Below are positions 16,500 to 35,685 of a stretch of 64,000 nt of DNA, in pieces. The stretch is from a virus (taxonomy: Duplodnaviria > Caudoviricetes), in the IMG/VR virus record IMGVR_UViG_3300022602_003472, positions 23 through 64,022 of that record, one strand, 5' to 3'. The translations under genes and the position numbers were made by a program. Under the pieces are notes generated by a model. That model searched no databases. It was given only the letters and a program-made list of their open reading frames with translations, and was not told the DNA's origin. Position 1 is the stretch's first letter, and every line of letters begins with the position of its first letter.

Positions 16500-17258
16500 A
16501 TGACATCAAGATTCATTCCAGACAGCTACGCGCTGCTTGTATTGCAGGTCACAGCTCATGTTGGATTAGTTGTCCAGCTACTGTACGGTCATTGGTATCA
16601 TTGGATAGTCACAGCTATCGTATATTTCATGACAGGATGCTGTGGCATGACCATGACGTTTCACAGATTGCTCAGTCATCGCAGCTGGCGTGCACCTCGG
16701 TGGTTCGAGATATTTGGCACGCTCTGTGGTACCTATGGATTGACTGGTAGCAGTGTAGGCTGGGTATCTGTGCACCGAGAACACCATCATCACACTGACA
16801 CTGATCTTGATCCGCACGGTCCAAAACACAAGGGATTTGCCAAAGTGCAATGGTTCAGCATGTTTGAACGTCCTAATCCCAGATACAGTCTACATTTGAT
16901 ACGAGATCAATTCCATTTATGGCTGCACAGACATTACATCATTCTGCATCTGTGTATATTTGTCTCATTAACGTTGATTAACCCCTGGTTATTGTTGTGT
17001 GCATATCTAACGCCTGCAGCCTTGCTATGGAATGCTGGATCATTTATTAACACGCTGACACATATGATAGGATATCGAAATCATCAGACGTCAGATGACA
17101 GCACTAACATCTGGTGGTTAGGCTATCTGATGTGGGGCGAAGGGTGGCATAACAATCATCATAACAGCCCAGGACGATCACAGTTTGGAGAGAAGTGGTG
17201 GGAGTTTGACCTCGGTGGTTGGTTGATCGCAAAGATAGATACATCGGTTAGATCTTGA
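16500..17258 (+). CDS. Membrane fatty acid desaturase (delta-9/acyl-CoA type)
   Basis: Three His boxes HRLLSH, HREHHHH and GEGWHNNHH, plus hydrophobic segments and WWEFD. Confidence 0.92.
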   Translation: MTSRFIPDSYALLVLQVTAHVGLVVQLLYGHWYHWIVTAIVYFMTGCCGMTMTFHRLLSHRSWRAPRWFEIFGTLCGTYGLTGSSVGWVSVHREHHHHTDTDLDPHGPKHKGFAKVQWFSMFERPNPRYSLHLIRDQFHLWLHRHYIILHLCIFVSLTLINPWLLLCAYLTPAALLWNAGSFINTLTHMIGYRNHQTSDDSTNIWWLGYLMWGEGWHNNHHNSPGRSQFGEKWWEFDLGGWLIAKIDTSVRS

Positions 17259-17304
17259 TCCCAGAGATTGTTTGAATTATAATTAATACTAGAGGATACA
17301 TCTC

Positions 17305-17928
17305 ATGGACAAGACCTTATCTAAACACTCGTTGCCTAGCATTGCTAATCTAAATCTCACTATCGATATCAAACGCTTGCAAGATGAATGTGATCGTTTA
17401 GCTGAGAAGTTTGTAGATGTGCGCACAGCCAATCCAATGTTATGCGATAATCATATGGACCTAGTAGCAGACGTTTACGATAATTTTGAACAGATAAATC
17501 TAACTACGCCAACCGTGATACTGCCCTATGAAGCCAGCATCAAGGAGAGATTGCGCCGGCGCGAGGAACATCTTTACAACATTCCAACTAGTGATTACCT
17601 CGATAGTTACTTCCAAACAATCGTCACGCAGTGTAAATCAACAGCAAGCCGGATAAGGATTACCAAGCTAGCTGCAGGCAAAACCATACCGTTTCATGTT
17701 GATTATGATGTCAGCTATGCAGTAAGATGCATAATACCAATCTACGGCGACAGGGATGTGGTGAATCTATTTCGCAGAGATAACCAGTTAGAAGCCTACA
17801 ATCTTGATATAGGTAATGCATACTTCCTCAACATTGGCTATCCACATGCTGTGATCAACATGAGCAAGAAACCAAGGATAGCCTTGATGTTTAGTCTAGA
17901 TGGCACTGCGGATATCGCAAATCTATGA
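17305..17928 (+). CDS. Fe(II)/2OG-dependent oxygenase (Asp/Asn beta-hydroxylase-like cupin)
   Basis: RIRITKLAAG...PFHVDYD...HAVIN...PRIALMF (HxD...H...R). Confidence 0.75.
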   Translation: MDKTLSKHSLPSIANLNLTIDIKRLQDECDRLAEKFVDVRTANPMLCDNHMDLVADVYDNFEQINLTTPTVILPYEASIKERLRRREEHLYNIPTSDYLDSYFQTIVTQCKSTASRIRITKLAAGKTIPFHVDYDVSYAVRCIIPIYGDRDVVNLFRRDNQLEAYNLDIGNAYFLNIGYPHAVINMSKKPRIALMFSLDGTADIANL

Positions 17929-18473
17929 TAGTATTCAGTGATCGAATATTCATACTCATACCAAAAAATGGTTGCTGCAGCATCATGGACCACTACGGTA
18001 TCAATGCATGGACATCGCGCAGAGGCAATGTACATGAAGCGCTATTGTATCTAGATGGCGATTACTGCCATCTGCCTGCAGCAATGGTACCAAGTAGATT
18101 CAGCAGTCTACCAACAGAGGCCATTGTACGCAATCCCTGGGATCGCACAGTGAGCAGATACGTCTATTCAATTCGTACCAAAGGATTGGATATGTCTTTC
18201 TCAGATTTTGTTGACAGTCGATACATTGATCCAAAATATCAAAATGACCCAGGTTATGCCAAATGGGGACCAGTTAGCTGGACACAGCAGGTTGAGTGGC
18301 TTAACAGTGATACCAACGTGCATAAATTTGAGGAATACGATTTCAAATTGCATGTGAATAGGTCGGTATATGATAACCATGCAAGCTATTATGACAAGCG
18401 ACTAAGCAATCTCGTAGGCGATTACTATGCTGATGATATCAAGAGATTTAGGTATAAACCAACGTTTGTATGA
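17925..18473 (+). CDS. Sulfotransferase family 2-like protein
   Basis: FILIPKNGCCSI (5'-PSB-like) and IVRNPWDRTVSRY (3'-PB-like); C-terminal YADDIKRFRY. Confidence 0.7.
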   Translation: MIVFSDRIFILIPKNGCCSIMDHYGINAWTSRRGNVHEALLYLDGDYCHLPAAMVPSRFSSLPTEAIVRNPWDRTVSRYVYSIRTKGLDMSFSDFVDSRYIDPKYQNDPGYAKWGPVSWTQQVEWLNSDTNVHKFEEYDFKLHVNRSVYDNHASYYDKRLSNLVGDYYADDIKRFRYKPTFV

Positions 18474-18491
18474 AATATCGGAATCGCAGAG

Positions 18492-18947
18492 ATGCAATGG
18501 AAGATCTGTCCTGTTGATAACCATGTAAGAGACATACAGCGGTTATTTCGACAGAATACCGACCATAAACATGCTCAGAATTATCTTCTAGATTCACTGT
18601 TGGAACATACGGTGTTTGCACGCATGGCCTTTGATCCACATCTCATATATTATAGTGCAGGCATTGTAAGGCCACAGTATAATGGTTCCATACGTATCAT
18701 GAGCAGGCATACTCGTGATAGGAACTATGATTTTGGTGGTTGGGCTGCGGATATGGCTCGCGGTCTCGAGACGCTTGATGCCAGCACTGCCATGGCCATA
18801 GAGCTGGGTTACAGCAACATCTGGGTCAGCAGGGAGGAGAGCCCCAAGCTGTTGGAATATTTCGGCAAGCACAGCAGATATGCGTGGAATGTCACGCATG
18901 AACAGCTGCACCACGGACAGTACCAATATGTGCTCCGCAAAGCGTAA
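18492..18947 (+). CDS. Hypothetical protein, possibly GNAT-fold
   Basis: 151 aa; IRIMSR...AIELGYSNIWVSRE pattern loosely GNAT-like. Confidence 0.45.
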   Translation: MQWKICPVDNHVRDIQRLFRQNTDHKHAQNYLLDSLLEHTVFARMAFDPHLIYYSAGIVRPQYNGSIRIMSRHTRDRNYDFGGWAADMARGLETLDASTAMAIELGYSNIWVSREESPKLLEYFGKHSRYAWNVTHEQLHHGQYQYVLRKA

Positions 18948-20406
18948 GGTGCTGCTGGCGACCATAAGCTCTGTCTACGAGGACTGGGCACCCTATCCCG
19001 TGGCGTGCCTCATATCACACTGCCTCAAAAATCCGCGCATCACAGCAGCCTATGAGTTCCTCGAACCCGAATATCGCTATCACTGGGATGACGAGGCATT
19101 CAACGACAAGCTGGCCAGCGCTGACATAGTGGGATTGACCTGCTATGTGTGGAACCAAGTGGCCAACGACAGGATAGCGCAGCGTTTCAAGCAGCTCAAT
19201 CCCTTGGGCGTGGTCGTCTATGGCGGTCCTAACGTGCCAGAGGACGACTTGGACAGCTATGTGAGGCCCTATGTGGACCATTACATCACTGGCCCAGGTG
19301 AGGTCAAGTTCGAACGGCTTTTGGATCCCGAAGCTGATTCCGCCTACGCCATACCCACGCCCTACACGGACGGAGTGCTGGACGGCATCATGTCGCGTCC
19401 GGTCAACGTGGCCTTGGAAACCAACCGAGGCTGCCCATATCACTGTGCGTTCTGCGATTGGGGCGGCGTTAGCAGAAGCAAGATTACCCAATTAGAAGAC
19501 AGCAGTGTCTACGCAAATCTTCTACACATCCTCGGCTATAAAGTCAAAAGACTAGAGATGTTAGATGCCAACTATGGCATATTCAAGCGAGATTTAGATT
19601 TCATTGAATTTATCGTTAAGCACAAGCAGCGCAACGACATGCTGCTGACATTCGCAGGATTTACCAAGAACGGCAGCCCTTGGATGGCACCAATAATGAA
19701 CCTAGTTATGGATAACTTCAACGATAAGAAGCGCAATGTAAAGATCAGCCTGCAGACGCTGTCACCCGAAGTGTTGGATACCATTGACAGGAAAAATATC
19801 AAGACCGAGAAACTGTTAGACATCTTGAATGAACTACGAGACGTCAGCGTTAGCAGCGAACTGATCCTAGGGCTGCCAGGTGAGACTGCTGCTTCTTGGA
19901 CAGATACTCTATTCAAGCATCAGGAACTGGGTATAGATTTCGCACGCAGTTATCCGTTGTACATACTCCCTAACACACCGATGGCCAAACAAGAATACAA
20001 AGACAGATATAAGATCAAGACCAAACGTCTAATACTACCAGATGGTGAGACGTTTGAAATGATCTACGAATGTTACAGTTACGATCTAGCAGAAATAAAG
20101 AAGATCTATCTGATTTGGCTGTATTTCAATACATTCTATAATTTTGGACTTGATAAAAACATAACCAAGGACACTCTTGCACAGTTTCTCTTGAATCCGC
20201 CGCCAGAGATGAAGATATACGAAGTAGAAGCAGCGTTAGAAAGAATATTCAAACCAGAGGACACGTATCATTTGGAGAACTATGATTTGAATTTCTTACA
20301 TTATCATCTAGGACGTGGTAAAGAATTGCTCTATATGAAACAAGCAGGATATCCCATCAACAATCCGGACAAGGAACTTCAGAGTCCTTTTGCGGTGTTG
20401 AAATGA
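18928..20406 (+). CDS. Cobalamin-binding radical SAM enzyme (class B methyltransferase-like)
   Basis: N-terminal B12 domain (IVGLTCYVWN...VVYGGPNV...GPGE), ETNRGCPYHCAFCDWG, ELILGLPGET. Start set at ATG 18928, in frame with the 18880 ORF. Confidence 0.9.
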   Translation: MCSAKRKVLLATISSVYEDWAPYPVACLISHCLKNPRITAAYEFLEPEYRYHWDDEAFNDKLASADIVGLTCYVWNQVANDRIAQRFKQLNPLGVVVYGGPNVPEDDLDSYVRPYVDHYITGPGEVKFERLLDPEADSAYAIPTPYTDGVLDGIMSRPVNVALETNRGCPYHCAFCDWGGVSRSKITQLEDSSVYANLLHILGYKVKRLEMLDANYGIFKRDLDFIEFIVKHKQRNDMLLTFAGFTKNGSPWMAPIMNLVMDNFNDKKRNVKISLQTLSPEVLDTIDRKNIKTEKLLDILNELRDVSVSSELILGLPGETAASWTDTLFKHQELGIDFARSYPLYILPNTPMAKQEYKDRYKIKTKRLILPDGETFEMIYECYSYDLAEIKKIYLIWLYFNTFYNFGLDKNITKDTLAQFLLNPPPEMKIYEVEAALERIFKPEDTYHLENYDLNFLHYHLGRGKELLYMKQAGYPINNPDKELQSPFAVLK

Positions 20407-20915
20407 AGGTAGCAGTCACAGGACATACGTCTGGCATAGGCAAAGCCTGTTTTGAACATTTCCATGCTGCGGGCTTCAGTAGGACCAACGGATTTGACAT
20501 CAATTCTCCTGACAAGATCGTAGAACACTGCCGCGATATAGATGTGTTTATCAACTCCGCACATGGTGGATTTGGACAAGCTACCATGCTCAAGGCCATC
20601 TTTAATAGCTGGCGCTACCAACCAAAACACATCTTCAACATCGGAGTAGATAAGGTAAGCCTTAAGAGCTGGGAACTGGTGAGCGAAACCTATCCCGTAG
20701 AAAAAATAGCAGCACATTCCATGTGTGAGGAACTACAAGCGTTGGCAAGATCTTGCCGCATAACCAACATCTGCTTGGGATTCGTCGAAAACTACGGCGG
20801 CGACATCGAGTTTAATGATATCGTAGAAACAATCCATTATATATACAATAAGCCATATGAGATCAAACGCATTCATATAGGCAACGGCGTCAAAAGGACT
20901 GCGGTAAATGATTAG
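20403..20915 (+). CDS. Short, atypical SDR/Rossmann oxidoreductase
   Basis: KVAVTGHTSGIG, DVFINSA, YPVEK (YxxxK). Confidence 0.75.
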   Translation: MKVAVTGHTSGIGKACFEHFHAAGFSRTNGFDINSPDKIVEHCRDIDVFINSAHGGFGQATMLKAIFNSWRYQPKHIFNIGVDKVSLKSWELVSETYPVEKIAAHSMCEELQALARSCRITNICLGFVENYGGDIEFNDIVETIHYIYNKPYEIKRIHIGNGVKRTAVND

Positions 20916-21561
20916 ATTTATGCCATTGGATCTGCCAGTGTTTGAACACAAGCAGAAGGTGCTCGATGAGTTCAATCCCGACGTAGATTTCTATTTTTGG
21001 AAAGAAGAGTACATATCAGAATGGACTCTTAGCGAGCCCCTGCATGCGCCAGCTAAGCTCAAACCGATCCACACTGAATTGGTTGAATATATCAAAGAAT
21101 ATTTTCCATTTGAAAGCATCACTCTACTCAAATTACTGAGGGCCAATCAAGATGTTGCTGCGCACGTAGACGACAGTTATACCGCCTATAAAGGTCCTAA
21201 AGATAATTGTCGATTGATAACAGAAGACTATCGACAGCATCAGCTACAGACCGAACCATGCGGATACAGGATGATAATTGCCGGCGACAGAAGCAGCTTA
21301 TATCTGTCTGACGGCAACCCAGAAGTACGAGACGGTCAGTTGGTTTACAATAAGATAACCGAGAAAAAATATTGCCACGTACCAGAAACCACAGACAGCT
21401 TTGTGTTGAAATCATACGGCAGCATGCACGGAGTAGATAAAACGCCAGGCGACGATAATAGATTGTTGGTGTTTGTTATCGGATGGCTCAATCCGGAAAA
21501 GCATCAAGAACTCATCGCCAGAAGTGAAAAGGTTTACAAAGATTATGTACACTATGCATGA
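20908..21561 (+). CDS. Cupin/Fe(II)-2OG oxygenase-like protein
   Basis: AAHVDD...SMHGV...RLLVFVIG. Confidence 0.55.
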   Translation: MIRFMPLDLPVFEHKQKVLDEFNPDVDFYFWKEEYISEWTLSEPLHAPAKLKPIHTELVEYIKEYFPFESITLLKLLRANQDVAAHVDDSYTAYKGPKDNCRLITEDYRQHQLQTEPCGYRMIIAGDRSSLYLSDGNPEVRDGQLVYNKITEKKYCHVPETTDSFVLKSYGSMHGVDKTPGDDNRLLVFVIGWLNPEKHQELIARSEKVYKDYVHYA

Positions 21562-22165
21562 AGGCTCTTATTGGCCGGTCTTCAAGGAAGTATTTGACGA
21601 GTATCAACCAAAAACAATCGTAGAGATTGGGACATACTATGGCGGATTGTCTTATAAGTTCCACGAACTTCTAAAGGGTCAAGGACATGTCTACGGAGTG
21701 CAGACCATAGATGAGGACAAGCTCATACATGTACCAAACTCAAACATGGGCGATTATAGCATAGGTGAAGCCGAAGGTAATATCGACCCTCGACTAAAGA
21801 AACACGATTGGAAGAAAGCAGTCAAGAAGTATTTTCCAGCACAGTATCATGGAAATTATGATTTCAATCTAACCATACAATCATTCCAACAGATGGAGAA
21901 TGCGACATTGATACTCGACACGTCTCCGTTTTCCTATCCATGGAAGATAGGTTATGATCTCTGCATCCTAGACATAACCACGGAAATAGAAGAGAATCAA
22001 AAGCAAGCTGATTACTGGATCAAATATGCCAATGACGGCGGAGTCTTAATGGTTGGCGCATGGACTCATCAATTGGAATTCTATGAGCTAGCTAAAAATA
22101 GATACGGTTTTCTTACCAAGAGTATCAAAATGAAGGATAAAGAACATGTTCTATTGTGCCTATGA
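21554..22165 (+). CDS. Class I SAM-dependent methyltransferase-like protein
   Basis: PKTIVEIGTYYGG motif I, YDLCILD, GGVLMV. Start chosen at the ATG overlapping the upstream stop. Confidence 0.65.
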   Translation: MHEGSYWPVFKEVFDEYQPKTIVEIGTYYGGLSYKFHELLKGQGHVYGVQTIDEDKLIHVPNSNMGDYSIGEAEGNIDPRLKKHDWKKAVKKYFPAQYHGNYDFNLTIQSFQQMENATLILDTSPFSYPWKIGYDLCILDITTEIEENQKQADYWIKYANDGGVLMVGAWTHQLEFYELAKNRYGFLTKSIKMKDKEHVLLCL

Positions 22166-22733
22166 ACTAGATTTTCCGAGACTGGAAGAGCTCAAGAATG
22201 AATTGCGCGAATTCTATCCAAGCCAGCCAGCAACGTGGCAAGCATCGGAATATCTAAACTACAAGCAGGTTGGACCAGAAACGGCGCGTTTTTATGAGTT
22301 GTTTGATAATTGCTTTCTCAATAACATGAGATTCTTGAGAGCACCAGCTGACACCTACTATGGTCCGCATATTGATATTGATGCACATGAACTGGATCAC
22401 TTTGAAGGTGAGATACCACCTAACATGGCACGCAATGCTACGATTAACATCCTCCTAGGGGACCCAGATCCGACAGTAACCAAGTGGTACATTGATTTAG
22501 AAGCCAAAAAGTACGACTGGAAGACCCATCGAGACATTGCTCACAAGATGAAATTGAAAGTCGTCGACGAATACTCGCTTGGCGAACCACCAATATTGTT
22601 CAACACAGGGCAATGGCATTCGGTGAAATATACCAAGGAAAGATGGATGGCTGGTTTCCATTTCCATCCATTTGTGACGTGGCAGGGCGCAGTAGAATAC
22701 TGCAGAGAGAAAGGATTCTTGATAGAACGATGA
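22146..22733 (+). CDS. Cupin/Fe(II)-2OG oxygenase-like protein
   Basis: GPHIDID...ATINILL...PILFNTGQWHSV...RWMAGF. Confidence 0.6.
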   Translation: MFYCAYELDFPRLEELKNELREFYPSQPATWQASEYLNYKQVGPETARFYELFDNCFLNNMRFLRAPADTYYGPHIDIDAHELDHFEGEIPPNMARNATINILLGDPDPTVTKWYIDLEAKKYDWKTHRDIAHKMKLKVVDEYSLGEPPILFNTGQWHSVKYTKERWMAGFHFHPFVTWQGAVEYCREKGFLIER

Positions 22734-24656: not shown

Positions 24657-24753
24657 CCTGGATCCATGGTATTATATTATATCTTATCCACAACAACATA
24701 TCAAAATGCCGAACTTTGATTGCTTGTGTCTCTGCAACCATATTAAATATGTC

Positions 24754-25332: not shown

Positions 25333-25394
25333 TAATTGCAGCATCGTGACATGACAATTATAATACCATTAAGATCCCACATTAAGAGACTGCC

Positions 25395-27180: not shown

Positions 27181-27182
27181 TA

Positions 27183-29080: not shown

Positions 29081-29642
29081 ACCAAGTTTCCATTTGCATG
29101 GGATCAATGCTTAACTCGTTTAATGCTATTCCAGTTGGTATTTCAGTTAACCATTTTATAAAATTAGCAGCTGTATCCACTGACATGCATTTCCTATCTG
29201 TGTGTTTATGTTGATTGTTGTCCAAAGTTCCTAGGCTTATCAGTGTTACATGAGGACCTCCGCTCCATACACTCATCATCGACAATCCAGTGCAGTAATT
29301 GCGCAGAGCTTTCTTTTCCTGTTGGTACATCCAATCTCTGGCTCCAGTGGCACGATCGGTGGTGCTGCCAATGCAAATGATGCGCAAGTCATGTTTGTCT
29401 TGTTTTGCTTTTTTATAGATTTTTTCAAGTATCAGCGTCTGATGAAATTTCCACAGTGCGCTGTTGTTTATAAAAATATCATGTGCTGCAGACAATGAAA
29501 CTAGCTTTTCTTGGTCAGTGTCTACTGTGAGATCGTATCCCGTGGATCTGCTTACAAAGGTAGCAGACGGCCAGATGTTTGCCAAAGCTGCCGCTAAACC
29601 TTTTTCACTATTACCAGTGATGAGAACTTTTTTATCCAACAT
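29073..29642 (-). CDS. Short SDR/Rossmann oxidoreductase
   Basis: KVLITGNSEKGLA, DIFINNS, ICIGS, YQQEK (YxxxK). Confidence 0.7.
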   Translation of the reverse strand: MLDKKVLITGNSEKGLAAALANIWPSATFVSRSTGYDLTVDTDQEKLVSLSAAHDIFINNSALWKFHQTLILEKIYKKAKQDKHDLRIICIGSTTDRATGARDWMYQQEKKALRNYCTGLSMMSVWSGGPHVTLISLGTLDNNQHKHTDRKCMSVDTAANFIKWLTEIPTGIALNELSIDPMQMETWYE

Positions 29643-30897
29643 GTTTGTGTGCATTTTCTGCATCCCAGGCATGAACCACATTTCTTAAGGTCAATCCTTC
29701 CCCGTCATCAACTTTCATTTGCATCATAACCGGAGCAATATCACGAGTATGTTTGTGAAATATACCAAGCGATACATCGTCGCGCCTGGCTTTTGGCACA
29801 CATTGTCCGCAACCGCAATGTGTCTTTGGGCAACGAATTAACGGAATCGATCCTGTCTGTTTGATAGTTGTCTCTAACTGATCGCAGTATTTGTCTAATT
29901 CACTGACTCGACATATGGGTTTGACTTCTCCGTTCAAATCAACTTGACAGGTTTGATGATGCCAAACTTGGTCAATCTCTTGATGTATGTATAAGAAATA
30001 CCAATTGATCATGCAATTCCAACCTTGGAAATTGTTATTGGTAAGGAATTTGGCATCGTCCCAATTACCAATTTCATCCATTAACGACATACGACGCCCA
30101 CCGCAGCAAGGTCGACCAATGCTTTGTCCAACCAGATTCTTTGGTTGTTGTGGAGTATTAGATTGAGCAATTTGTTGTGTAGATACTGTGTCAGTTTCCT
30201 TATCCTCGCGCAACACATGTGAGTTTTTTAGATTCCAAAATTGCTTGAGCCAATCCATCTGCCAATCTGAATAGAGATGCACAGTCTTGTCTCTCAATCC
30301 CAGCTTGATAGTTCCTTCGTCTCCTATGACACGCGGTGTATATGATATACCAACATCATCAAACCATTGGCATAGATCGATGCATTCTTTGAAATATTCA
30401 TCATCTTGATGAAACATGACATTTACTTTGAACTTATACTTGCGCTCGTGCATAATTTTCATGTTTAATCTTACTCGAGCCTTCTGCTCAGCAGTGCTTT
30501 CACAATGATAGCTGATTGTAGAAAAAGTAGTGTTGTTCATGACCTGTTCCAATCTGCGTTCACTGTAGAAACCATTGGTTGTCACGGTCCTATGCATGCT
30601 GGGATGTTTTTCGCTCAGATATTCGAGAAAGGGGAAGAAATCTGGATTTACAGTTGGTTCGCCTCCGGTAAAACTGCAGGATATCTTGAAAGGTTTTGAT
30701 CTGTATCTGTTATAAATCTCGCCATATCTAGCCACGCTATCAGCTGTGCGCACCAATTCATCAAAACGTGCAGTGGGACTCCAATTGTTTCTTCGGTGCG
30801 GCGGGCAGTAAGAACACGTATATGTGCATCTGCGGCCAAGGTCCCAGATCACTAAGAGACTATCAGTTTCGTTATCATCAACAGCACAGAAACTCAT
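29632..30897 (-). CDS. Radical SAM protein with C-terminal Cys cluster
   Basis: CTYTCSYC, FTGGEPT, TTNG, RPCCGG, CPKTHCGCGQC. Confidence 0.9.
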   Translation of the reverse strand: MSFCAVDDNETDSLLVIWDLGRRCTYTCSYCPPHRRNNWSPTARFDELVRTADSVARYGEIYNRYRSKPFKISCSFTGGEPTVNPDFFPFLEYLSEKHPSMHRTVTTNGFYSERRLEQVMNNTTFSTISYHCESTAEQKARVRLNMKIMHERKYKFKVNVMFHQDDEYFKECIDLCQWFDDVGISYTPRVIGDEGTIKLGLRDKTVHLYSDWQMDWLKQFWNLKNSHVLREDKETDTVSTQQIAQSNTPQQPKNLVGQSIGRPCCGGRRMSLMDEIGNWDDAKFLTNNNFQGWNCMINWYFLYIHQEIDQVWHHQTCQVDLNGEVKPICRVSELDKYCDQLETTIKQTGSIPLIRCPKTHCGCGQCVPKARRDDVSLGIFHKHTRDIAPVMMQMKVDDGEGLTLRNVVHAWDAENAHKHVG

Positions 30898-30910
30898 ATC
30901 ACAATCCTTT

Positions 30911-32224
30911 TCATAGCATCCACGGTTGTAGATCTGGAAATACGTCTAACACATTTTGACCGCGTATCTTGTCAAGGTTGTCTGTAGATTTTTTAAAGGC
31001 TGACCAATCTTTTCTATATGTATGAGAATAATTCATGTAACCGCAAACACTATTTCTAATATCATCAGCACTTTTTATCACGATATCGCTGTAACCTTCC
31101 AGTTTTACCCAGTCAACAAATTGATCAAACTTGTGCATGACAATGTTTTTAACCATCTTAGGTAACACTCTGATGTTTAATTCAGACGGCATATGAGCCA
31201 TATGGTAGCTTATGATTGGTTGCGTTGTGGAATTATTGAATTTTTTCAATCCACTCTTTTCAAGCTTCCACTGCATGAAATCGGGCATGTGCAACACGTT
31301 ATATGCTGTGACGGTAAAGGCAAACCATGCTCTGATATTATCAGATGCTGCATCAACTTTCTGTATGTTACGCCATACTTTTTCCCAATTAGCTGGGTGT
31401 CTTTGATATTCAAAAACCTTACCATATCCATCAATGCTAGCGCCAACTTCTATGTTTTTAAAATGCGTCCAAAGATCCAATACCCTGGGAGATATGCTGG
31501 TCATGTTGGTGTTATATTCCACAGTCATAGACGCTGCAGCACCGTTATCAATACAACGCTGTAAAAATTCATAGTGCCGTGCTATCAATAGCGGCTCGCC
31601 CCCTGCCATATAAACATGCTGCACGTTATGTGCATTTGTTTCTATTTGCTCCCAGAATGAATCGTTGTTATGCCATCCATAGCTGTGGCTGATTAATTTA
31701 CCTTGTTGCCTATGTATATGTTCTCGGCCGTGAGTATCGTTAAACCAGTTTCTGTTTGCTAGTTTTATGTAATCTTCATACCACCCAGTGCTGTCTTGAG
31801 GTCCGCACATGCGGCAAGCCAGATTACACAGATTGCCAAAACGCAAATCATAATAGGTAACCGGAAGAGCATCAACATCAATGCTCCCGTCAATGGCCGT
31901 GTGATCTATCACATCACCACGACGTAATTTCCACCTATCTTGTTCGTAGAGCCTGCGGCTTACCATACCCGATTGCTCTTCCGACTTACATCTACCACAT
32001 TCGCTGCTCCATATACCATCTAACATGTTGCGTCTCACTGATCGCATGAGATCACTGTTTCTAGATACAGACATATCATCACGAGCGGCGTTATACGGAG
32101 TTCCGTCTGGCTTTCTAAGCACACCTTTGTCTTTGGTAATATTGGCTTGACAGCACACACGAAGATCGCCATTGCTGCGAACTGCTTGGAAATTCCAAGG
32201 TATTGGGCACCATGTATCAGACAT
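30911..32224 (-). CDS. Radical SAM protein with N-terminal twitch domain
   Basis: WCPIPW...NGDLRVCC...CGRC; DLRFGNLCNLACRMC; YMAGGEPL; YNTN; ASIDG. Confidence 0.92.
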   Translation of the reverse strand: MSDTWCPIPWNFQAVRSNGDLRVCCQANITKDKGVLRKPDGTPYNAARDDMSVSRNSDLMRSVRRNMLDGIWSSECGRCKSEEQSGMVSRRLYEQDRWKLRRGDVIDHTAIDGSIDVDALPVTYYDLRFGNLCNLACRMCGPQDSTGWYEDYIKLANRNWFNDTHGREHIHRQQGKLISHSYGWHNNDSFWEQIETNAHNVQHVYMAGGEPLLIARHYEFLQRCIDNGAAASMTVEYNTNMTSISPRVLDLWTHFKNIEVGASIDGYGKVFEYQRHPANWEKVWRNIQKVDAASDNIRAWFAFTVTAYNVLHMPDFMQWKLEKSGLKKFNNSTTQPIISYHMAHMPSELNIRVLPKMVKNIVMHKFDQFVDWVKLEGYSDIVIKSADDIRNSVCGYMNYSHTYRKDWSAFKKSTDNLDKIRGQNVLDVFPDLQPWML

Positions 32225-33500
32225 TATATCTATCTCGCCAGTCATTGACTGCAATAGCAGCATGCGGAAATATAGAATCCCAATCTTGTTGCTGATTGTC
32301 TTTGAAACGCTGCCAGACCATCACCAATCGCTGCCTGTGTTCAGCTGCATCGTCGTCTGGCATGCGATACCTATGATATAATTTCTCGTAATGATCTAAC
32401 TTCTTGTTGAGTTTAGAACTGATAGATCCAACAGATATGCTGGACCGTGCAGACTTTAAGATGTTGTCTATGTGCTGTGGTTCAAGAATGTTGATATTGA
32501 AATACACAGGGTTATAAACCATGTGGCTGAAATGCTCGTTGATCTTCTTGAACCGTTGATCGGCTGCCCATTGCAATAATGCCCCGTAATGCTCCAAAGA
32601 AAGCACGCTAATAGTAGTCGATATAAACACCGATATGTGATCATCGCTTTGGTCTAACATTCGTATGTTGTCTGATACTGTTTCCCAGTTGCTTAGATAT
32701 CGTATGGCATCATTGGCAGGACCCAATGCATCAATGCTGGCACAGATACGTATCTTTTTGAATTGTTTCCACAGAGTAAACAAATCAGGTGGGAAGAAAG
32801 TGAGGTTAACACTGTATTCCAGTTCCATGTTTCTGCTGTAGCCAGATGATATCAGAGATTCCAGTAGATATCTGTGATGCTTGATCAACAAGGGTTCTCC
32901 GCCGCCAAAATTAATCTTCAGCAAACCGTTTGATGATCTTATCAAGGCATCAATGTTGTTCTTGTCTTTGGACCAACCAAACGCACTACTGGAATTTCCA
33001 AGATCATATACCTTGTCATCGACCACGAAATAATCCAAACCAGTTATCTCTTGGTGAGCATCATACCATTTTGATGCTTCGCCGGGGAAACACATTACAC
33101 AGCGCAGATTACACTGATTGCCTATTCGCAAATCAAAATCTTGGAATTTAAGACCAGTAACAGAACCATCTGGTGCTGTGGATTCCAATGCCATTGCTTT
33201 GGTAAAACTGTGCAAGTGTCGTTCCGTTTCCCATTGGTCTCGGCTGTTGGATCCCACAGACGATTCCTGTTCGCATCGCCTGCACTGTATAGGCCAATCT
33301 CCATCTAGCATCTTACGGCGCACATCCTTGAGAGTGTCGCAGTTTAACACATCTTCGCGATCCAAATCAGTGATGTTTAATATGTGTTGATTGTTATACA
33401 ACAGCGTGTTGCCCTGGCCAGCACTTTGGCTATGGCTACACATGCGGAGGTCGCCATTATTTTTAACGCCCAAGTGCGTCCAAGGTAAAGGGCACCACAT
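32217..33500 (-). CDS. Radical SAM protein with N-terminal twitch domain
   Basis: WCPLPW...NGDLRMCS...CRRC; DLRIGNQCNLRCVMC; NFGGGEPL; ASIDA. Confidence 0.92.
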   Translation of the reverse strand: MWCPLPWTHLGVKNNGDLRMCSHSQSAGQGNTLLYNNQHILNITDLDREDVLNCDTLKDVRRKMLDGDWPIQCRRCEQESSVGSNSRDQWETERHLHSFTKAMALESTAPDGSVTGLKFQDFDLRIGNQCNLRCVMCFPGEASKWYDAHQEITGLDYFVVDDKVYDLGNSSSAFGWSKDKNNIDALIRSSNGLLKINFGGGEPLLIKHHRYLLESLISSGYSRNMELEYSVNLTFFPPDLFTLWKQFKKIRICASIDALGPANDAIRYLSNWETVSDNIRMLDQSDDHISVFISTTISVLSLEHYGALLQWAADQRFKKINEHFSHMVYNPVYFNINILEPQHIDNILKSARSSISVGSISSKLNKKLDHYEKLYHRYRMPDDDAAEHRQRLVMVWQRFKDNQQQDWDSIFPHAAIAVNDWRDRYNV

Positions 33501-33568
33501 TATTTGAAATCCAGAGATATATCCATGCTAATTTATAATATATCCTATCACGCAAGTAAACTTGTAAC

Positions 33569-34423
33569 ATGAGAGATGGACCAAATAGACAATACTCAGC
33601 TGAATGGCTACAGGTCGAAAGACCTCAGCCTATGTATGATAGCAACATTCGCAAGCTATATGGTGCTATATATAACGAAAATCCAGTAGATTCTTCAAAT
33701 ATTGTCAATGATTTCAAAGATACATTCTTAGAGTATCTCGACGCACATAGCTTGAGCAATCTACGCGGATATAGAAGTTTCGCTCGATTAGACGCATGCG
33801 TTGGGTGCACTCAATTCATTGATGACTTGTATCAGCGTTTGGGCAACAACCGCCTCATGGTTTTTGAAAACGAGTACAAATACCATTGGCGATTGAATGA
33901 AAACATAGAATACACCACTATACCAACCTTGGATTCTAGCAAAGAGCTGCTGATATCAATGCCATTCCCTGCGCACGGAGATGTGCACCCAGAAATGTCT
34001 CAGATATTAGACCGATGTGCCGAGCTTCGCATACCCGTGCACATCGACGGCGCATGGGTCTCGTGCAGCCAAGGCATAGATTTCAATTTTGACCATCCTG
34101 CTATTCAAACATTCGCAATAAGCCTCAGCAAGGGCGGTCTTGGCAATGACAGGGTGGCCTTGAGATTTGCCAGGTCCAGACCAGACGGTGCCATCAGCAT
34201 AATGAATGATTTCAACATGAATTGCCAAAGCTTGATGCACATCGGAATGCAATTCATGCGACAGATAGGTCCAGAATACTTTTGGAAGAAATATGGCACA
34301 GCCTATCAGACTGTGTGTGCTGATTTCAATCTCACACCAACCAAAGCCATCCACCTAGCCAAAGATCAAAAAGGTTCGCCTGTGGGCGTGAGACCACTGT
34401 TGCGATGCCTCATTAAATCTTAA
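33569..34423 (+). CDS. Short PLP-dependent enzyme (fold type I-like)
   Basis: VGCTQFI, ISMPF, VHIDGAW, ISLSKGGLGNDRVALRF. Confidence 0.7.
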   Translation: MRDGPNRQYSAEWLQVERPQPMYDSNIRKLYGAIYNENPVDSSNIVNDFKDTFLEYLDAHSLSNLRGYRSFARLDACVGCTQFIDDLYQRLGNNRLMVFENEYKYHWRLNENIEYTTIPTLDSSKELLISMPFPAHGDVHPEMSQILDRCAELRIPVHIDGAWVSCSQGIDFNFDHPAIQTFAISLSKGGLGNDRVALRFARSRPDGAISIMNDFNMNCQSLMHIGMQFMRQIGPEYFWKKYGTAYQTVCADFNLTPTKAIHLAKDQKGSPVGVRPLLRCLIKS

Positions 34424-35325
34424 ACCACAGTCTTTTCTACCAGAGCATCCCACTTGCATGGACACAGGTCTTGATCGCATATGACGCCATCGCTGGGTAG
34501 ATCATACTCACCAAAGATGTTACCCACAGTACTGCCTACTCTGCGCGAACAACGATGTATGTCTCCTCCTATATCAACATAGAATCTGCGCACACCTGCT
34601 TGGCATTTCATGCCGTTGAACGCATGTAAACCTCGATCTAGAATGAGCGGGAATCTGATTCGTTCCCCGTCCAGATGTAGGTTAACCGGCAGCTGCCACG
34701 ACATCGCATGAGGTTTCATCTTGAGATATCTATAATTGGTTATCCACTGTCGCTGTTCTTCTGTGTATCCTAAGAACACAGTTGATCCTATCTCTTCTCT
34801 GACAAATCGAGGCAGTATTTCTATGTTCAATCCTTCCAATCTGCCAGCCAGCCGCTTGGCCCTCTCAAAATTCTCAGGTACCACCATCAGCGCCACACCG
34901 CAGCTAACCTTGTGTTGTAATATCTTGGCCACTTCAATAAAATGATCATCGTCACACTGCTCATGATGCCAACTCATCATGATGTACATGGGTCCAGCTG
35001 CGAACGAATCCCAATATCTAAGACTACGGGATGCATTTGTGCTGAATTCTATATACGTGTTTTGATCACTGACTGCTGATACGAAATCTCTGAACTGTGG
35101 CCATATGGTTGGTTCTCCGCCCATGAATTCCACATAGGTGTATTGGTTCCTTGCTCTGACTTTTACCAAGAAGTCTATGAAAGGCGCAGGGTCATCAGGC
35201 CATCTATTGCTCTTGTTGTTGTGTACAGGGCTACAATAAGAACAGCTAAAGTTACAGTAGTTGTGCATGAATAGTGTTACCAAAGCACAATCTAAATTCT
35301 CATTGGTCACATGAGCCAGCATCAA
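34420..35325 (-). CDS. Radical SAM protein with C-terminal SPASM/twitch-like motif
   Basis: CNFSCSYC, FMGGEPT, STNAS, CQAG...GDIHRC...ICDQDLCPC. Confidence 0.9.
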   Translation of the reverse strand: MMLAHVTNENLDCALVTLFMHNYCNFSCSYCSPVHNNKSNRWPDDPAPFIDFLVKVRARNQYTYVEFMGGEPTIWPQFRDFVSAVSDQNTYIEFSTNASRSLRYWDSFAAGPMYIMMSWHHEQCDDDHFIEVAKILQHKVSCGVALMVVPENFERAKRLAGRLEGLNIEILPRFVREEIGSTVFLGYTEEQRQWITNYRYLKMKPHAMSWQLPVNLHLDGERIRFPLILDRGLHAFNGMKCQAGVRRFYVDIGGDIHRCSRRVGSTVGNIFGEYDLPSDGVICDQDLCPCKWDALVEKTVV

Positions 35326-35606
35326 GCGTGTCCTATGATTCCAAAATTTTGTATGTCGTTGAGCTTGCTGACTTCGGTAATTTGATCAGTCATGATCTTG
35401 TTTACTAGTTTGATATTCTTTTTATGGTAAGACGGATCAAGCTGACCGATGATATGACCCAAATTCAAACTCAATACCGACAATACCACATCATTGGCTG
35501 TCTCGGCATTGGTTTTGGTTTCTAACTGCAGATGCAGTCCGGCTAGATAGGTGTAAAGCGCGGCGCTGAGATCATTCTTGAGATCGATTGTGGTCTGTTC
35601 ATCCAT
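35322..35606 (-). CDS. Hypothetical protein
   Basis: 94 aa; TAAATA 4 nt upstream; overlaps the downstream rSAM start. Confidence 0.6.
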   Translation of the reverse strand: MDEQTTIDLKNDLSAALYTYLAGLHLQLETKTNAETANDVVLSVLSLNLGHIIGQLDPSYHKKNIKLVNKIMTDQITEVSKLNDIQNFGIIGHA

Positions 35607-35679: not shown

Positions 35680-35685
35680 TCTCTA

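What the first reader, a model, noticed from the sequence alone, without database searches (positions are those of the whole stretch)
16500..35606. ~19 kb phage-encoded tailoring-enzyme cluster inserted between the tail tube and tail sheath genes
Seen: about 25 contiguous, often overlapping ORFs separate gp19 from gp18, which are adjacent in T4. They comprise 6 radical SAM enzymes (one B12-binding, five with twitch/SPASM-like Cys motifs), 7 HxD...H Fe(II)/2OG-cupin oxygenases, 3 PLP enzymes, 2 SDRs, a desaturase, a methyltransferase, a kinase-like protein, 1-2 sulfotransferase-like proteins and a possible GNAT. There is no scaffold synthase (NRPS, PKS, terpene cyclase), transporter or integrase, so the substrate must be supplied from elsewhere. 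Several units start just after late-promoter-like hexamers (TAAATT 16489, TAAATA 24744 and 35611, TAAACT 33557). Known: SPASM/twitch rSAMs mostly modify peptides or proteins, and PLP, rSAM, 2OG-oxygenase and acetyltransferase enzymes also build hypermodified thymidines in phages such as M6, PaMx11 and YuA. Inference: this is an undescribed late-expressed modification pathway that decorates the virion (sheath, tube, fibres or their glycans), or alternatively modifies DNA or makes a small molecule.
Basis: partly seen in the sequence, partly recalled or inferred. Interest (0 to 1): 0.9.

Follow-up and report, generated by a model that had tools for sequence, protein, structure and literature searches.

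The report
Radical-SAM sugar-tailoring island, giant phage
An uncultured freshwater giant phage carries, between its tail-sheath and tail-tube genes, a real 19-kb block of 25 intact enzyme genes rich in iron-sulfur "radical SAM" enzymes that most likely edits a sugar-type molecule by chemistry nobody has tested.

Summary
25 tightly packed ORFs (16500-35606) lie between the tail tube (15805-16401) and a 1355-aa sheath (35686-39753). Six are radical SAM (rSAM) enzymes with intact CxxxCxxC motifs. It is not an assembly chimera. An independent IMG/VR contig has the same gene order from sheath to tube, and contigs from public runs bridge both junctions.

In 56 related loci the sheath-tube gap runs from 110 bp to 8.9 kb. 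In larger contigs and the window it reaches 14.7-25.7 kb, so this is an insertion hotspot.

A core recurs: g18 rSAM with a short SDR, N-terminal-twitch rSAMs (NF033640), and a short PLP enzyme. The rest is mosaic accessory content. g6-g9 were exchanged recently (pS 0.01-0.05, against 0.6-0.9 elsewhere).

The same core occurs in Bdellovibrio-like and Parcubacteria genomes next to glycosyltransferases. In a complete 518-kb relative the island itself encodes UDP-glucose dehydrogenase-like and NAD epimerase/dehydratase enzymes. N-twitch rSAM and the short PLP domain occur naturally fused.

Best reading (about 0.5): the island tailors a nucleotide-linked sugar or glycoconjugate. The acceptor is unknown. 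Late expression and virion decoration are not shown.

The scan has found this kind of island on other DNA before (e1-5863163 and others). No biochemical study turned up in my literature searches.

The parts
15805..16401 (-). Tail tube protein (gp19-like); left boundary of the island.
   Evidence: PF06841 E 0.0031. 47-52% identical to the annotated tube proteins of Atu_ph07 and Phosso, and 94% to G001. CATAAATA lies 32 nt upstream.
16500..17258 (+). g1: membrane di-iron fatty-acid-desaturase-family protein.
   Evidence: PF00487 56.6 bits; NF049918 84 bits, below its cut-off. PDB acyl-CoA desaturase 1, 7.7e-15. Sits next to the tube in G001, G002 and G004 as well.
17305..17928 (+). g2: Asp/Arg beta-hydroxylase-type 2OG oxygenase.
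   Evidence: PF05118 22.9 bits. hhalign probability 100 with g13. HxD...H seen.
17925..18473 (+). g3: sulfotransferase-like (weak).
   Evidence: PF00685 E 0.0064, below cut-off. phrog_3347 'Galactose-3-O-sulfotransferase' 1.6e-4 over the full length.
18492..18947 (+). g4: unknown 151-aa protein.
   Evidence: No family hit. 77% identical orthologue in G001.
18880..20406 (+). g5: cobalamin-type rSAM C-methyltransferase-like enzyme.
   Evidence: PF04055 33 bits; PF02310 19.5 bits, below cut-off; NF033712 KedN5 151 bits against a cut-off of 700. PDB TokK 1.4e-44 and CysS 2.6e-28.
20403..20915 (+). g6: short SDR-like protein.
   Evidence: adh_short E 0.003, below cut-off. Paralogue of g19, 5e-6. 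TGxxxGIG and YxxxK seen. 100% identical in G001.
20908..21561 (+). g7: unknown protein with an HxD...H motif only.
   Evidence: No family hit. No profile link to the other cupins.
21473..22165 (+). g8: methyltransferase-like (weak).
   Evidence: Methyltransf_24 E 0.02; RMNT_CmcI E 0.067.
22146..22733 (+). g9: cupin-like candidate, paralogue of g11.
   Evidence: phmmer against g11 4e-13. Its profile hits g14 at E 0.004. HxD...H seen.
22613..23263 (+). g10: unknown protein with HxE/D...H. The true start is probably internal.
   Evidence: phrog_274 (annotated 'DNA endonuclease V') 6.7e-7. No Pfam or PDB hit.
23247..23876 (-). g11: cupin-like candidate, paralogue of g9.
23886..24656 (-). g12: short fold-type-I PLP-like protein.
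   Evidence: phmmer against g17 1e-15. SLSK...R motif. A sigma70-like site (11 of 12 matches) lies at 24704-24676, upstream.
24607..25332 (+). g13: Asp/Arg beta-hydroxylase-type 2OG oxygenase.
   Evidence: PF05118 32.9 bits. PDB Cpz10 (7V4F) 1.3e-11.
25395..25886 (+). g14: distant member of the g2/g13 oxygenase family.
   Evidence: The g2 and g13 profiles hit it at 4.5e-6 and 5.7e-7. hhalign probability 62%.
25881..26450 (-). g15: unknown protein.
   Evidence: No family hit. Orthologues at 48-56% in G001, L008 and L074.
26440..27180 (-). g16: unknown protein.
   Evidence: No family hit. Orthologues at 42-52%.
27183..28007 (-). g17: short fold-type-I PLP-like protein.
   Evidence: PF00155 21.6 bits, above the 19.7 cut-off. 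Paralogue of g12 and g23.
27956..29107 (-). g18: core rSAM with a C-terminal 4-Cys auxiliary-cluster domain. It is the most conserved gene of the island.
   Evidence: PF04055 45.7 bits. 86-91% identical where the sheath is 57-74% identical. 4786 homologues. Invariant C320, C342, C363 and C368. AF2 pLDDT 84.9. BlsE Z 16.7, viperin 16.2 and SkfB 16.1 are tied.
29073..29681 (-). g19: short SDR-like partner of g18.
   Evidence: Directly upstream of g18 in 15 of the 16 IMG/VR loci that hold a g18 orthologue at 80% identity or more; in the sixteenth, L021, it lies about 1.4 kb away. Homologues in L093 and L098 hit adh_short at 3.5e-5 and 1.1e-4. YxxxK seen.
29632..30897 (-). g20: rSAM, paralogue of g18 and g24, with a Cys-rich C-terminus.
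   Evidence: PF04055 45.3 bits. phmmer against g18 2e-15.
30911..32263 (-). g21: N-terminal-twitch rSAM (NF033640 member).
   Evidence: NF033640 379 bits against a cut-off of 170. Invariant C19, C37, C89, C92 plus C146, C150, C153. AF2 pLDDT 91. Best PDB Z 12.6, covering the core only.
32217..33500 (-). g22: N-terminal-twitch rSAM (NF033640 member).
   Evidence: NF033640 288 bits. The SPASM Pfam hit lies at residues 3-77. TATAAATT lies 37 nt upstream.
33569..34423 (+). g23: core short PLP-like enzyme.
   Evidence: 319 representative clusters, typically 270-320 aa. D160 is invariant; K188 and R195 are each conserved in at least 90% of 32 sequences. Profile against a PDB aminotransferase 1.3e-4. 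Natural fusions to N-twitch rSAM.
34420..35325 (-). g24: rSAM, paralogue of g18 and g20.
   Evidence: PF04055 36.6 bits; NF038073 56.6 bits, below cut-off.
35322..35606 (-). g25: unknown 94-aa protein directly downstream of the sheath gene.
   Evidence: No family hit. 41-100% identical in island-bearing phage loci, and not found in the cellular loci. No similarity to the small ORFs after the Atu_ph07 and Phosso sheath genes.
35686..39753 (-). Tail sheath, 1355 aa; right boundary of the island.
   Evidence: PF17482 2.3e-13. 44% identical to the Atu_ph07 sheath.
48094..52004 (+). Four-gene glycosyltransferase operon; a possible user of the island's product (inferred).
   Evidence: Mannosyl_trans3 1.4e-18, GT92 1.3e-8, GT1/GT4 1.4e-9; the first ORF has no hit.
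2200..3372 (-). Third N-twitch rSAM of the window, outside the island.
   Evidence: NF033640 217 bits, above cut-off. PF04055 25.7 bits.

Best explanation
The block is one instance of a widespread but biochemically untested cassette that is rich in radical SAM (rSAM) enzymes. It sits in an insertion hotspot between the sheath and tube genes of a clade of freshwater giant phages distantly related to Agrobacterium phage Atu_ph07.

Proposed mechanism (inferred):
- A nucleotide-linked sugar is taken from the host pool. In some relatives the island itself makes one.
- The conserved core edits it. The g18-type rSAM works with its short SDR partner g19, in a radical dehydration, decarboxylation or oxidation followed by a reduction.
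- The N-terminal-twitch rSAMs g21 and g22 work with the short PLP enzyme g23, either by radical oxidation followed by transamination or by a radical amino shift.
- Swappable accessory enzymes then decorate the product: a TokK/CysS-like B12 C-methylase (g5), Cpz10-like 2OG hydroxylases (g2, g13, g14), and sulfotransferase-, methyltransferase- and desaturase-like proteins.
- The product is probably passed to glycosyltransferases, such as the four at 48-52 kb. These would place it on an acceptor made in the infected cell. A virion protein is the favoured guess but is unproven.

Shown: gene content, conservation, mosaicism, the cellular counterparts, and the fusions. Inferred: the substrate class, the reaction types, and the acceptor.
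For: 1. The genes are real and under selection. In 23 gene pairs between the window and G001, pN is 0.00-0.41 while pS is 0.59-0.87 in 17 of the 23 (lower, 0.009-0.37, in g5-g10). An independent contig has the same order, and contigs bridge both junctions.
2. There is a core and an accessory part. The order g25-(g24)-g23-g22-g21-g19-g18-tube recurs in 7 of 56 loci that span sheath to tube, and in further partial loci. g18 stays 86-91% identical.
3. All 9 genome-contig loci that hold a full-length g18 match (56-67% identical) carry several N-twitch rSAMs nearby. Two are clearly cellular (L093, a 2.9-Mb chromosome; L098, a 1.27-Mb contig). In these the cluster abuts GT2, PMT_2 (GT-C), GT28_C and an rSAM-GT2 fusion. 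GT2 lies within 10 kb in 4 of the 9 loci with a full-length g18 match.
4. The homologous 25.7-kb island of the complete 518-kb relative G002 encodes an NAD epimerase/dehydratase (PF01370, 1e-31) and a UDP-glucose/GDP-mannose dehydrogenase (1.7e-16). An epimerase homologue also lies in cellular locus L099.
5. Natural fusions exist. P0172 is an N-twitch rSAM (33% identical to g21, 2e-81) followed by a g23-like domain. P0205 has the reverse order. P0222 joins a PhyH dioxygenase to a g23-like domain.
6. The nearest characterised relatives act on small molecules, nucleosides or acyl-CoA rather than on peptides: TokK and CysS, Cpz10, acyl-CoA desaturase. g3 matches a PHROG annotated as galactose-3-O-sulfotransferase.
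7. Homologues of the window's GT operon lie upstream of the sheath in 4 of 4 island-bearing loci that have a full upstream flank, against 2 of 16 loci without the island. This count is confounded by relatedness.
Against: - No glycosyltransferase, nucleotidyltransferase or recognisable nucleotide-sugar enzyme lies inside this window's own island.
- The fold searches do not separate sugar or nucleoside enzymes from peptide maturases. For g18, BlsE, viperin, SkfB and EpeE lie within 1 Z unit of each other. For g21, CteB, SkfB, BlsE and anSME are tied at Z 12.5-12.6.
- The rSAM half of the L098 rSAM-GT2 fusion is not of the g18, g24 or N-twitch type.
- 5 of the 9 genome-contig loci with a full-length g18 match showed no GT2 by my local search.
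- The GT operon also occurs in L025 and L036, which lack the island at this locus.
- The membrane desaturase g1 and the LpxO-family hydroxylases would also fit a lipid substrate.
- 7 of the 25 ORFs have no family match at all (g4, g7, g9, g11, g15, g16, g25).
- No product, substrate or expression data exist.
Confidence: 0.5

Rival explanations
1. Nucleotide, nucleoside or DNA chemistry. The cassette would build a modified nucleotide or a nucleoside-type small molecule, for example a DNA hypermodification precursor, an anti-defence molecule or an antibiotic-like compound, and not a glycan.
For: - g18's best structural neighbours include viperin (CTP/UTP), BlsE (blasticidin S), MoaA (GTP) and DesII.
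- g13's closest solved relative, Cpz10, acts on a uridine-derived intermediate.
- Unchecked earlier notes report g18-like rSAM plus SDR next to QueC-like ATPases in other phages.
- A paper on cyanophage S-SCSM2R annotates a neighbouring rSAM, aminotransferase-family gene and amidinotransferase as 'antibiotic synthesis genes' (passages read).
Against: - None of the 25 ORFs hit a DNA-transferase, TGT/DpdA-like, kinase or hydroxymethylase family in Pfam.
- The cellular counterparts sit beside GT2, GT-C and GT28 genes.
- G002's island carries UDP-glucose dehydrogenase-like and epimerase genes. A nucleotide-sugar is also a nucleotide, so this rival partly overlaps the best reading.
Confidence: 0.2
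2. Peptide or protein modification. The SPASM/twitch-type rSAMs would mature a ribosomal peptide (g25 or another small ORF), or directly modify residues of the sheath, tube or another virion protein.
For: - Fold neighbours include the peptide maturases CteB, SkfB, SuiB, EpeE and anSME.
- NCBIfam gives low-scoring hits to PapB, YhhB and RumMC models.
- The island lies between two virion genes.
- g25 is a conserved 94-aa ORF with no assigned family.
Against: - No PqqD/RRE domain, protease, leader-type peptide or exporter was hit.
- All peptide-maturase NCBIfam scores are far below their cut-offs.
- g25 is absent from the cellular clusters that keep the rSAM core.
- The same families form arrays far from tail genes in G002 and G015, and in bacteria.
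- The N-twitch rSAM is fused to a PLP domain, and nucleotide-sugar enzymes lie inside a sister island.
Confidence: 0.12
3. Host-envelope remodelling. The product would be a lipid-linked sugar or a lipid A/LPS-type modification placed on the infected cell's surface, for example to exclude other phages, and not on the virion.
For: - g1 is a membrane acyl-desaturase-family enzyme conserved at the tube-proximal end of the island.
- g2, g13 and g14 belong to the Asp/Arg hydroxylase family. From memory, this family includes the lipid A hydroxylase LpxO.
- Cellular locus L093 pairs a GT2 with a PMT_2 (ArnT-like) GT-C enzyme, an SDR and a PLP enzyme, which recalls the Arn pathway (the pathway is recalled).
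- The pelagimyophage paper proposes host O-chain modification for phage glycosyltransferases (passages read).
Against: - Among the 25 island ORFs and 29 flanking ORFs sent to Pfam, no flippase, GT-C, polymerase or exporter was found. Not every ORF of the window was scanned.
- The window's glycosyltransferase hits are to Mannosyl_trans3, GT92 and GT1/GT4; from memory these are soluble nucleotide-sugar-dependent types.
- The island sits in the structural gene region.
Confidence: 0.13

Closest known systems
NCBIfam NF033640, 'twitch domain-containing radical SAM protein' (N_Twi_rSAM)
   Same: g21 (379 bits), g22 (288 bits) and ORF 2200-3372 (217 bits) all score above the 170-bit cut-off. They have the N-terminal 4-Cys domain followed by CxxxCxxC.
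   Different: The family is only catalogued. My paper searches found no substrate or reaction. Here it is part of a larger cassette, is expanded to 16 copies in a sister phage genome, and occurs fused to a PLP domain.
rSAM gene cassettes in hypervariable regions of T4-like marine phages (Zaragoza-Solas et al. 2020, PMC7029224; Nishimura et al. 2017, PMC5332604)
   Same: T4-like phages carrying many rSAM genes (up to 12). The cassettes come and go in variable regions alongside glycosyltransferases and Asp/Asn beta-hydroxylases (passages read).
   Different: Those papers record presence only. The location differs: the host-recognition cluster there, the sheath-tube gap here. This lineage is a freshwater, Atu_ph07-like giant phage. 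The supplements were closed, so I could not check whether the families are the same.
Cobalamin-dependent rSAM C-methyltransferases TokK, CysS and KedN5
   Same: g5 matches TokK at 1.4e-44, CysS at 2.6e-28 and the KedN5 model at 2.7e-44 over the rSAM core.
   Different: g5 is 508 aa, against 645-681 aa. Its score of 151 bits is far below the 700-bit family cut-off, and its B12-domain hit is below Pfam's cut-off. From memory, those enzymes work in carbapenem, cystobactamid and enediyne pathways.
Twitch rSAM plus partner-enzyme logic of aminoglycoside pathways (BtrN dehydrogenase with an aminotransferase; AprD4 dehydratase with the AprD3 reductase). Recalled knowledge.
   Same: rSAM enzymes with an auxiliary cluster are paired with a PLP enzyme (g21/g22 with g23, fused in nature) or with an SDR (g18 with g19, adjacent). 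Both BtrN and AprD4 appear among the structural matches, but low in the lists (Z 12.2 for g18; Z 7.4 for g21).
   Different: There is no sequence-level membership. The twitch domain is N-terminal in g21 and g22. The PLP enzyme is a short (about 280 aa) class-I-like form, not a DegT/DnrJ sugar aminotransferase. No reaction has been shown.
Phage thymidine hypermodification pathways (Lee et al. 2018 and 2021, PMC5889632 and PMC8989533; search listing and abstracts only)
   Same: Phage-encoded sets of PLP, rSAM and other tailoring enzymes that act after a scaffold has been supplied.
   Different: None of the enzyme types I recall as defining these pathways (5-hmdU DNA kinase, amino-acid:DNA transferase, dUMP hydroxymethylase) hit any of the 25 ORFs in Pfam. 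The cassette also lives in bacterial chromosomes beside glycosyltransferases.

Membership tests
NF033640 N_Twi_rSAM | Whole-protein score above NCBI's curated cut-off (170 bits). | tested here: met
   g21 379 bits and g22 288 bits. ORF 2200-3372 217 bits. None of 14 control genomes exceeds the cut-off.
NF033640 N_Twi_rSAM | An N-terminal Cys-rich (twitch-like) domain before the CxxxCxxC rSAM motif. | tested here: met
   C19, C37, C89, C92 and C146, C150, C153 are invariant in 23 of 23 aligned sequences. The SPASM Pfam hit lies at residues 3-77 of g22.
Radical SAM superfamily (PF04055) | A Pfam score above cut-off together with a CxxxCxxC motif. | tested here: met
   Six of six ORFs score 30.4-45.7 bits against a cut-off of 29.5. 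The motifs were read.
KedN5/TokK-type cobalamin rSAM methyltransferases | A score above the NF033712 cut-off (700 bits) and a B12-binding domain above Pfam's cut-off. | tested here: not met
   151 bits. PF02310 19.5 bits against a cut-off of 32.1. Homology to TokK is nevertheless strong, at 1.4e-44. g5 works like the family but is not a curated member.
Asp/Arg beta-hydroxylase 2OG oxygenases (PF05118) | A Pfam score above cut-off and an HxD...H iron triad. | tested here: met
   This holds for g13 (32.9 bits) and g2 (22.9 bits against a cut-off of 22.6). g14 is linked only through profiles. g7, g9, g10 and g11 were not met or were inconclusive.
Fold-type I PLP enzymes (Aminotran_1_2) | A Pfam hit above cut-off, a Schiff-base Lys in an S-x-S-K context, and a conserved Asp. 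| tested here: met
   g17 scores 21.6 bits against a cut-off of 19.7. D160 is invariant, and K188 and R195 are each conserved in at least 90% of 32 sequences. The profile hits a PDB aminotransferase at 1.3e-4. The family is short (270-320 aa), so it is a distant branch.
RiPP maturase systems (SPASM rSAM plus precursor peptide) | An RRE/PqqD-like domain or a cognate precursor peptide, and a score above cut-off for a peptide-maturase model. | tested here: not met
   There is no PqqD hit. All maturase models fall far below their cut-offs, for example PapB at 30-36 bits against 340. No precursor was identified. g25 remains untested as a substrate.
Prokaryotic viperins (NF038283) | A score above the 180-bit cut-off. 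| tested here: not met
   g18 scores 40.5 bits. The fold resemblance (Z 16.2) is tied with unrelated rSAMs.
Phage thymidine hypermodification clusters | A 5-hmdU DNA kinase, an amino-acid:DNA transferase and a dUMP hydroxymethylase near the tailoring enzymes (defining features recalled). | tested here: inconclusive
   No such Pfam family was hit in the 25 ORFs. Only 64 kb of a probably >400-kb genome is held.
Nucleotide-sugar tailoring / glycan biosynthesis clusters | Nucleotide-sugar enzymes and glycosyltransferases in the same cluster. | tested here: inconclusive
   Neither is present inside this window's island. Both are present in sister and cellular versions of it: PF01370 and UDPG_MGDP_dh in G002, and GT2, GT28_C and PMT_2 in L093 and L098. 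Four glycosyltransferase genes lie 12 kb away in the window.

The most novel reading that the evidence does not exclude
The N-terminal-twitch rSAMs, the g18-type rSAM and the short PLP enzymes may together form a virus-expanded enzymology, so far uncharacterised, for radical editing of carbohydrates. The reactions would be C-H amination, epimerisation, deoxygenation and iterative C-methylation. Giant phages would shuffle these enzymes as cassettes to build hypermodified, strain-specific sugars on their own particles. That would make them a phage counterpart of bacterial O-antigen diversity.
Probability: 0.3. Interest if true: 0.85.

Novelty: new variant of a known kind. Interest (0 to 1): 0.62.

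Why it matters
The two rSAM families at the heart of this island number in the thousands of sequences. Their nearest Atlas clusters are 88-100% viral. A single 518-kb phage carries 16 copies of one of them. Neither family turned up with a described reaction or substrate in my searches.

If these enzymes edit sugars, they would add new radical carbohydrate chemistry. They would also explain what giant phages do with a sizeable part of their 'extra' genome.

The natural rSAM-PLP fusions and the conserved rSAM-SDR pair give concrete two-enzyme units to reconstitute. The recent swap of a four-gene segment between diverged phages shows that the cassette evolves by module exchange. That pattern is expected for traits under diversifying pressure, such as surface or recognition structures.

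Tried and rejected
- **Chimeric assembly:** rejected. G001 has the same order, and X1 contigs bridge 16309-18450 and 35078-35971 with no differences. X1 may be the source sample. G001 comes from another record.
- **Late promoters:** exact TATAAATA is found 4 times against 1.85 expected, and 16 of 100 shuffles reach 4. None lies in the island. Sites with one mismatch lie within 120 nt upstream of 6 of 27 starts, against about 1.7 expected from my own rough rate. This is suggestive only. The sigma70 and terminator scans fall below the shuffle means.
- **Expression:** no RNA holder was listed, so there is no evidence either way.
- **Cultured phages:** megablast of the island found no match. g18 by tblastn found no match. 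g21 found only 4 weak records.
- **g25:** compared with the small ORFs after the Atu_ph07 and Phosso sheath genes. No similarity.
- **Fold searches** for g18 and g21 gave only generic rSAM neighbours. They do not identify a substrate class.
- **g10:** no PDB hit. The PHROG label 'DNA endonuclease V' is left unresolved.
- **GT2 whole-genome searches** were usable only for G006 and G011, because contig numbers could not be mapped to my loci.
- **Pfam at E up to 10** gave nothing credible for g4, g7, g9, g10, g11, g14, g15, g16 and g25.
- **Literature:** searches found no functional study of these families.

Full report
**What is there.** The window is the whole of a 64-kb virus record. It has T4-type structural and replication genes: the gp23 capsid protein, gp15, large terminase, gp32 and a RecA/UvsX-like protein. 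The 1355-aa sheath is 44% identical to that of Agrobacterium phage Atu_ph07 and 41% to that of Sinorhizobium phage Phosso.

Between the tube gene (15805-16401, minus strand) and the sheath gene (35686-39753, minus strand) lie 19,284 bases. They hold 25 ORFs, which I call g1 to g25. Seventeen of the 24 internal junctions overlap when the longest ORFs are taken. G+C is 0.405-0.427 between 20 and 34 kb, against 0.456-0.54 over most of the rest of the window.

**Enzyme content.**
- Six ORFs pass Pfam's Radical_SAM cut-off and carry CxxxCxxC: g5, g18, g20, g21, g22, g24.
- g21 and g22 are members of NCBIfam NF033640, the N-terminal-twitch rSAM family (379 and 288 bits; cut-off 170).
- g18, g20 and g24 are paralogues with Cys-rich C-termini. 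In 28 g18 homologues, four C-terminal Cys are invariant.
- g5 matches the cobalamin rSAM methylases TokK (1.4e-44) and CysS (2.6e-28). It stays far below the KedN5 family cut-off.
- g1 is a fatty-acid-desaturase-family membrane protein.
- g2 and g13 are Asp/Arg-hydroxylase-type 2OG oxygenases. g13's nearest solved relative is Cpz10 of caprazamycin biosynthesis. g14 joins them through profiles.
- g9 and g11 are paralogues linked to that group only weakly. g7 and g10 have only the motif.
- g12, g17 and g23 are short (256-284 aa) fold-type-I PLP-like proteins. The pyridine-binding Asp is invariant, and the Schiff-base Lys and an Arg are conserved in at least 90% of 32 sequences.
- g6 and g19 are short SDR-like paralogues, below Pfam's cut-off.
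- g3 is weakly sulfotransferase-like. g8 is weakly methyltransferase-like.
- g4, g7, g9, g11, g15, g16 and g25 matched no family in Pfam or PHROGs; g16 was also run against NCBIfam without a hit.

**It is real and functional.** IMG/VR record G001 carries the same order: sheath, g25, g24, g23, g22, g21, g20, g19, g18, g16, g15, g12, g11, g10 down to g1, then tube. It lacks only g13, g14 and g17.

Contigs from public freshwater metagenome runs tile the island. They bridge both junctions without a difference: 16309-18450 and 35078-35971 in run X1. That run may be the source sample.

Across 23 gene pairs between the window and G001, non-synonymous divergence (pN) is 0.00-0.41. Synonymous sites (pS) are near saturation at 0.59-0.87 in 17 of the pairs. 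The genes are therefore under purifying selection.

The exception is informative. g6-g9 have pS of 0.009-0.05, and g5 and g10 have 0.29-0.37. A segment of about 3.6 kb therefore moved recently between otherwise old lineages. This matches a 3.6-kb contig in X1 and a mosaic contig in X4.

**A variable locus.** Fifty-six related IMG/VR loci hold both the sheath C-terminus and the tube. In them the gap runs from 110 bp to 8.9 kb.
- Seventeen gaps are under 200 bp, which is the T4-like adjacent state.
- Seven loci hold the rSAM core. All seven have sheath identity of 65% or more.
- One holds g1- and g13-like genes.
- Forty-eight hold no island gene.

Larger contigs have gaps of about 17.3 kb (G001), 14.7 kb (G004) and 25.7 kb (G002, a complete 518-kb genome with terminal repeats). 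In Atu_ph07 and Phosso the same gap is 3-4 kb and holds a Ro-like RNA-binding protein.

The minimal island is g25, (g24), g23, g22, g21, g19, g18 (for example L033 and L039). g18 is 86-91% identical even where the sheath is only 57-74% identical.

**Beyond this clade.** g18 has 4786 database homologues. It has none in 50,697 cultured phage records. The nearest Atlas clusters of g18 and g21 are 88-100% viral.

NF033640 genes above cut-off number 3 in the window, 16 in G002 (in four arrays, one with eight copies in 15 kb), 10 in complete genome G015, and none in 14 control genomes. In G015 the g18 homologue lies far from the tail genes, next to a g23-like gene.

g18 homologues at 56-67% identity also occur in MAGs labelled Bacteriovoracaceae, Bdellovibrionales, Parcubacteria, Rickettsiales, Alphaproteobacteria and Gammaproteobacteria, and one labelled only 'bacterium'. 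The nine loci with a full-length match all have several N-twitch rSAMs nearby. Some of these contigs may be misbinned phage. The 2.9-Mb chromosome (L093) and the 1.27-Mb contig with enolase and TsaD (L098) are cellular.

**Clues to the substrate.**
- In L093 the rSAM, SDR and PLP cluster abuts a 623-aa GT2 and a PMT_2 (GT-C) protein. In L098 it abuts a GT28_C protein and an rSAM-GT2 fusion.
- My local search found GT2 within 10 kb in 4 of the 9 loci with a full-length g18 match.
- G002's island encodes, right after its g1 homologue, an NAD-dependent epimerase/dehydratase (1e-31) and a UDP-glucose/GDP-mannose dehydrogenase (1.7e-16). It also has further Asp/Arg hydroxylases and a B12 rSAM.
- The g23 family (319 representative clusters, typically 270-320 aa) includes natural fusions. 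P0172 is a full N-twitch rSAM (33% identical to g21, 2e-81) followed by a g23-like domain. P0205 has the opposite order. P0212 is an rSAM plus a g23-like domain. P0222 is a PhyH dioxygenase plus a g23-like domain. P0260 is a g23-like domain plus a methyltransferase. The fusions argue that N-twitch rSAM and the short PLP enzyme act on the same molecule.
- The window holds four glycosyltransferase genes at 48094-52004. Their homologues lie upstream of the sheath in 4 of 4 island-bearing loci with a full flank, against 2 of 16 without. Shared ancestry confounds that count.

**What the evidence does not settle.**
- AF2 models of g18 (pLDDT 84.9) and g21 (pLDDT 91.0) find only generic rSAM neighbours.
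- BlsE, viperin, SkfB and EpeE tie for g18 at Z 15.7-16.7. CteB, SkfB, BlsE and anSME tie for g21 at Z 12.5-12.6, over the core only.
- This window's island has no glycosyltransferase or nucleotide-sugar enzyme of its own.
- The rSAM half of the L098 rSAM-GT2 fusion is not of the window's families.
- A membrane desaturase and LpxO-family hydroxylases would suit a lipid.
- No RNA run was listed.

**Interpretation.** I read the block as a cassette that tailors a nucleotide-linked sugar or glycoconjugate (confidence about 0.5).
- It has a conserved core of two enzyme pairs: rSAM g18 with SDR g19, and N-twitch rSAM with PLP g23.
- From memory, these pairs resemble AprD4/AprD3 and BtrN plus its aminotransferase.
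- Around the core is a swappable set of methylating, hydroxylating and possibly sulfating enzymes.
- The acceptor is open. I favour a virion protein only weakly, because the glycosyltransferases hit families that I recall as soluble types and the region is structural.
- The rivals are nucleotide or DNA chemistry (0.2), host-envelope remodelling (0.13) and peptide or protein modification (0.12).

**What is known already.**
- The literature notes many rSAM genes in T4-like environmental phages (PMC5332604, passages).
- It notes rSAM cassettes in the hypervariable host-recognition cluster of pelagimyophages (PMC7029224, passages).
- A cyanophage paper calls a similar trio of genes 'antibiotic synthesis genes' (PMC12801897, passages).
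- None of these assigns a reaction, and my searches found no biochemical study.
- This scan has reported the same kind of island before on other DNA, including one between sheath and tube genes (e1-5863163) and many N-twitch arrays. Those are unchecked AI notes. I re-derived the parts I rely on.

Noticed in passing
window 20403-22733 (g6-g9), with g5 and g10 partly included: The segment is near-identical to G001 (aa identity 98.6-100%, pS 0.009-0.05), while the flanking genes have saturated synonymous divergence. This indicates a recent recombinational transfer of a four-gene module between old phage lineages.
   Followed up: partly
window 2200-3372 (-): A third NF033640 N-twitch rSAM (217 bits) lies outside the island, near the groES/groEL end of the window.
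   Followed up: partly
G002 (complete 518-kb relative): 86997-102161, 143766-152209, 380914-387505, 454543-457634: Sixteen NF033640 genes sit in four arrays in one phage genome, eight of them within 15 kb. Complete genome G015 has ten.
   Followed up: no
window 24704-24676 (-): This is the best sigma70-like site in the island (TTGATA, 17-nt spacer, TATAAT; 11 of 12 matches). It lies just upstream of g12 and might give the g12-g11 unit host-type transcription. Overall such sites are fewer than in shuffles.
   Followed up: no
window 45594-45616, 47308-47315, 63670-63677: Exact TATAAATA (T4 late-promoter consensus, recalled) occurs four times. One site lies about 20 nt upstream of the gp15-like gene start (45636) and one upstream of the 63642 minus-strand gene.
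   Followed up: partly
window 47281-48069 (+): An ORF with a PolyA_pol head domain (8e-26), probably a nucleotidyltransferase of the CCA-adding/poly(A) polymerase type, lies between gp15 and the glycosyltransferase operon.
   Followed up: no
L001 (Atu_ph07) 24140-25795; L002 (Phosso) 25624-27288: In the cultured relatives the sheath-tube gap holds a Ro-like RNA-binding protein instead of the enzyme island. Atu_ph07 has two annotated rSAM genes 17-20 kb upstream of its sheath gene.
   Followed up: no
L098 14990-16606 (Parcubacteria contig): A single 538-aa protein fuses an rSAM domain to a GT2 glycosyltransferase domain. Its rSAM part is unrelated to the window's rSAM families.
   Followed up: partly
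G015:C1:424303-425412: The g18 homologue of this complete 457-kb phage was reported with one in-frame TGA inside the match. I did not check whether this is the gene's end, a recoding event or an error.
   Followed up: no
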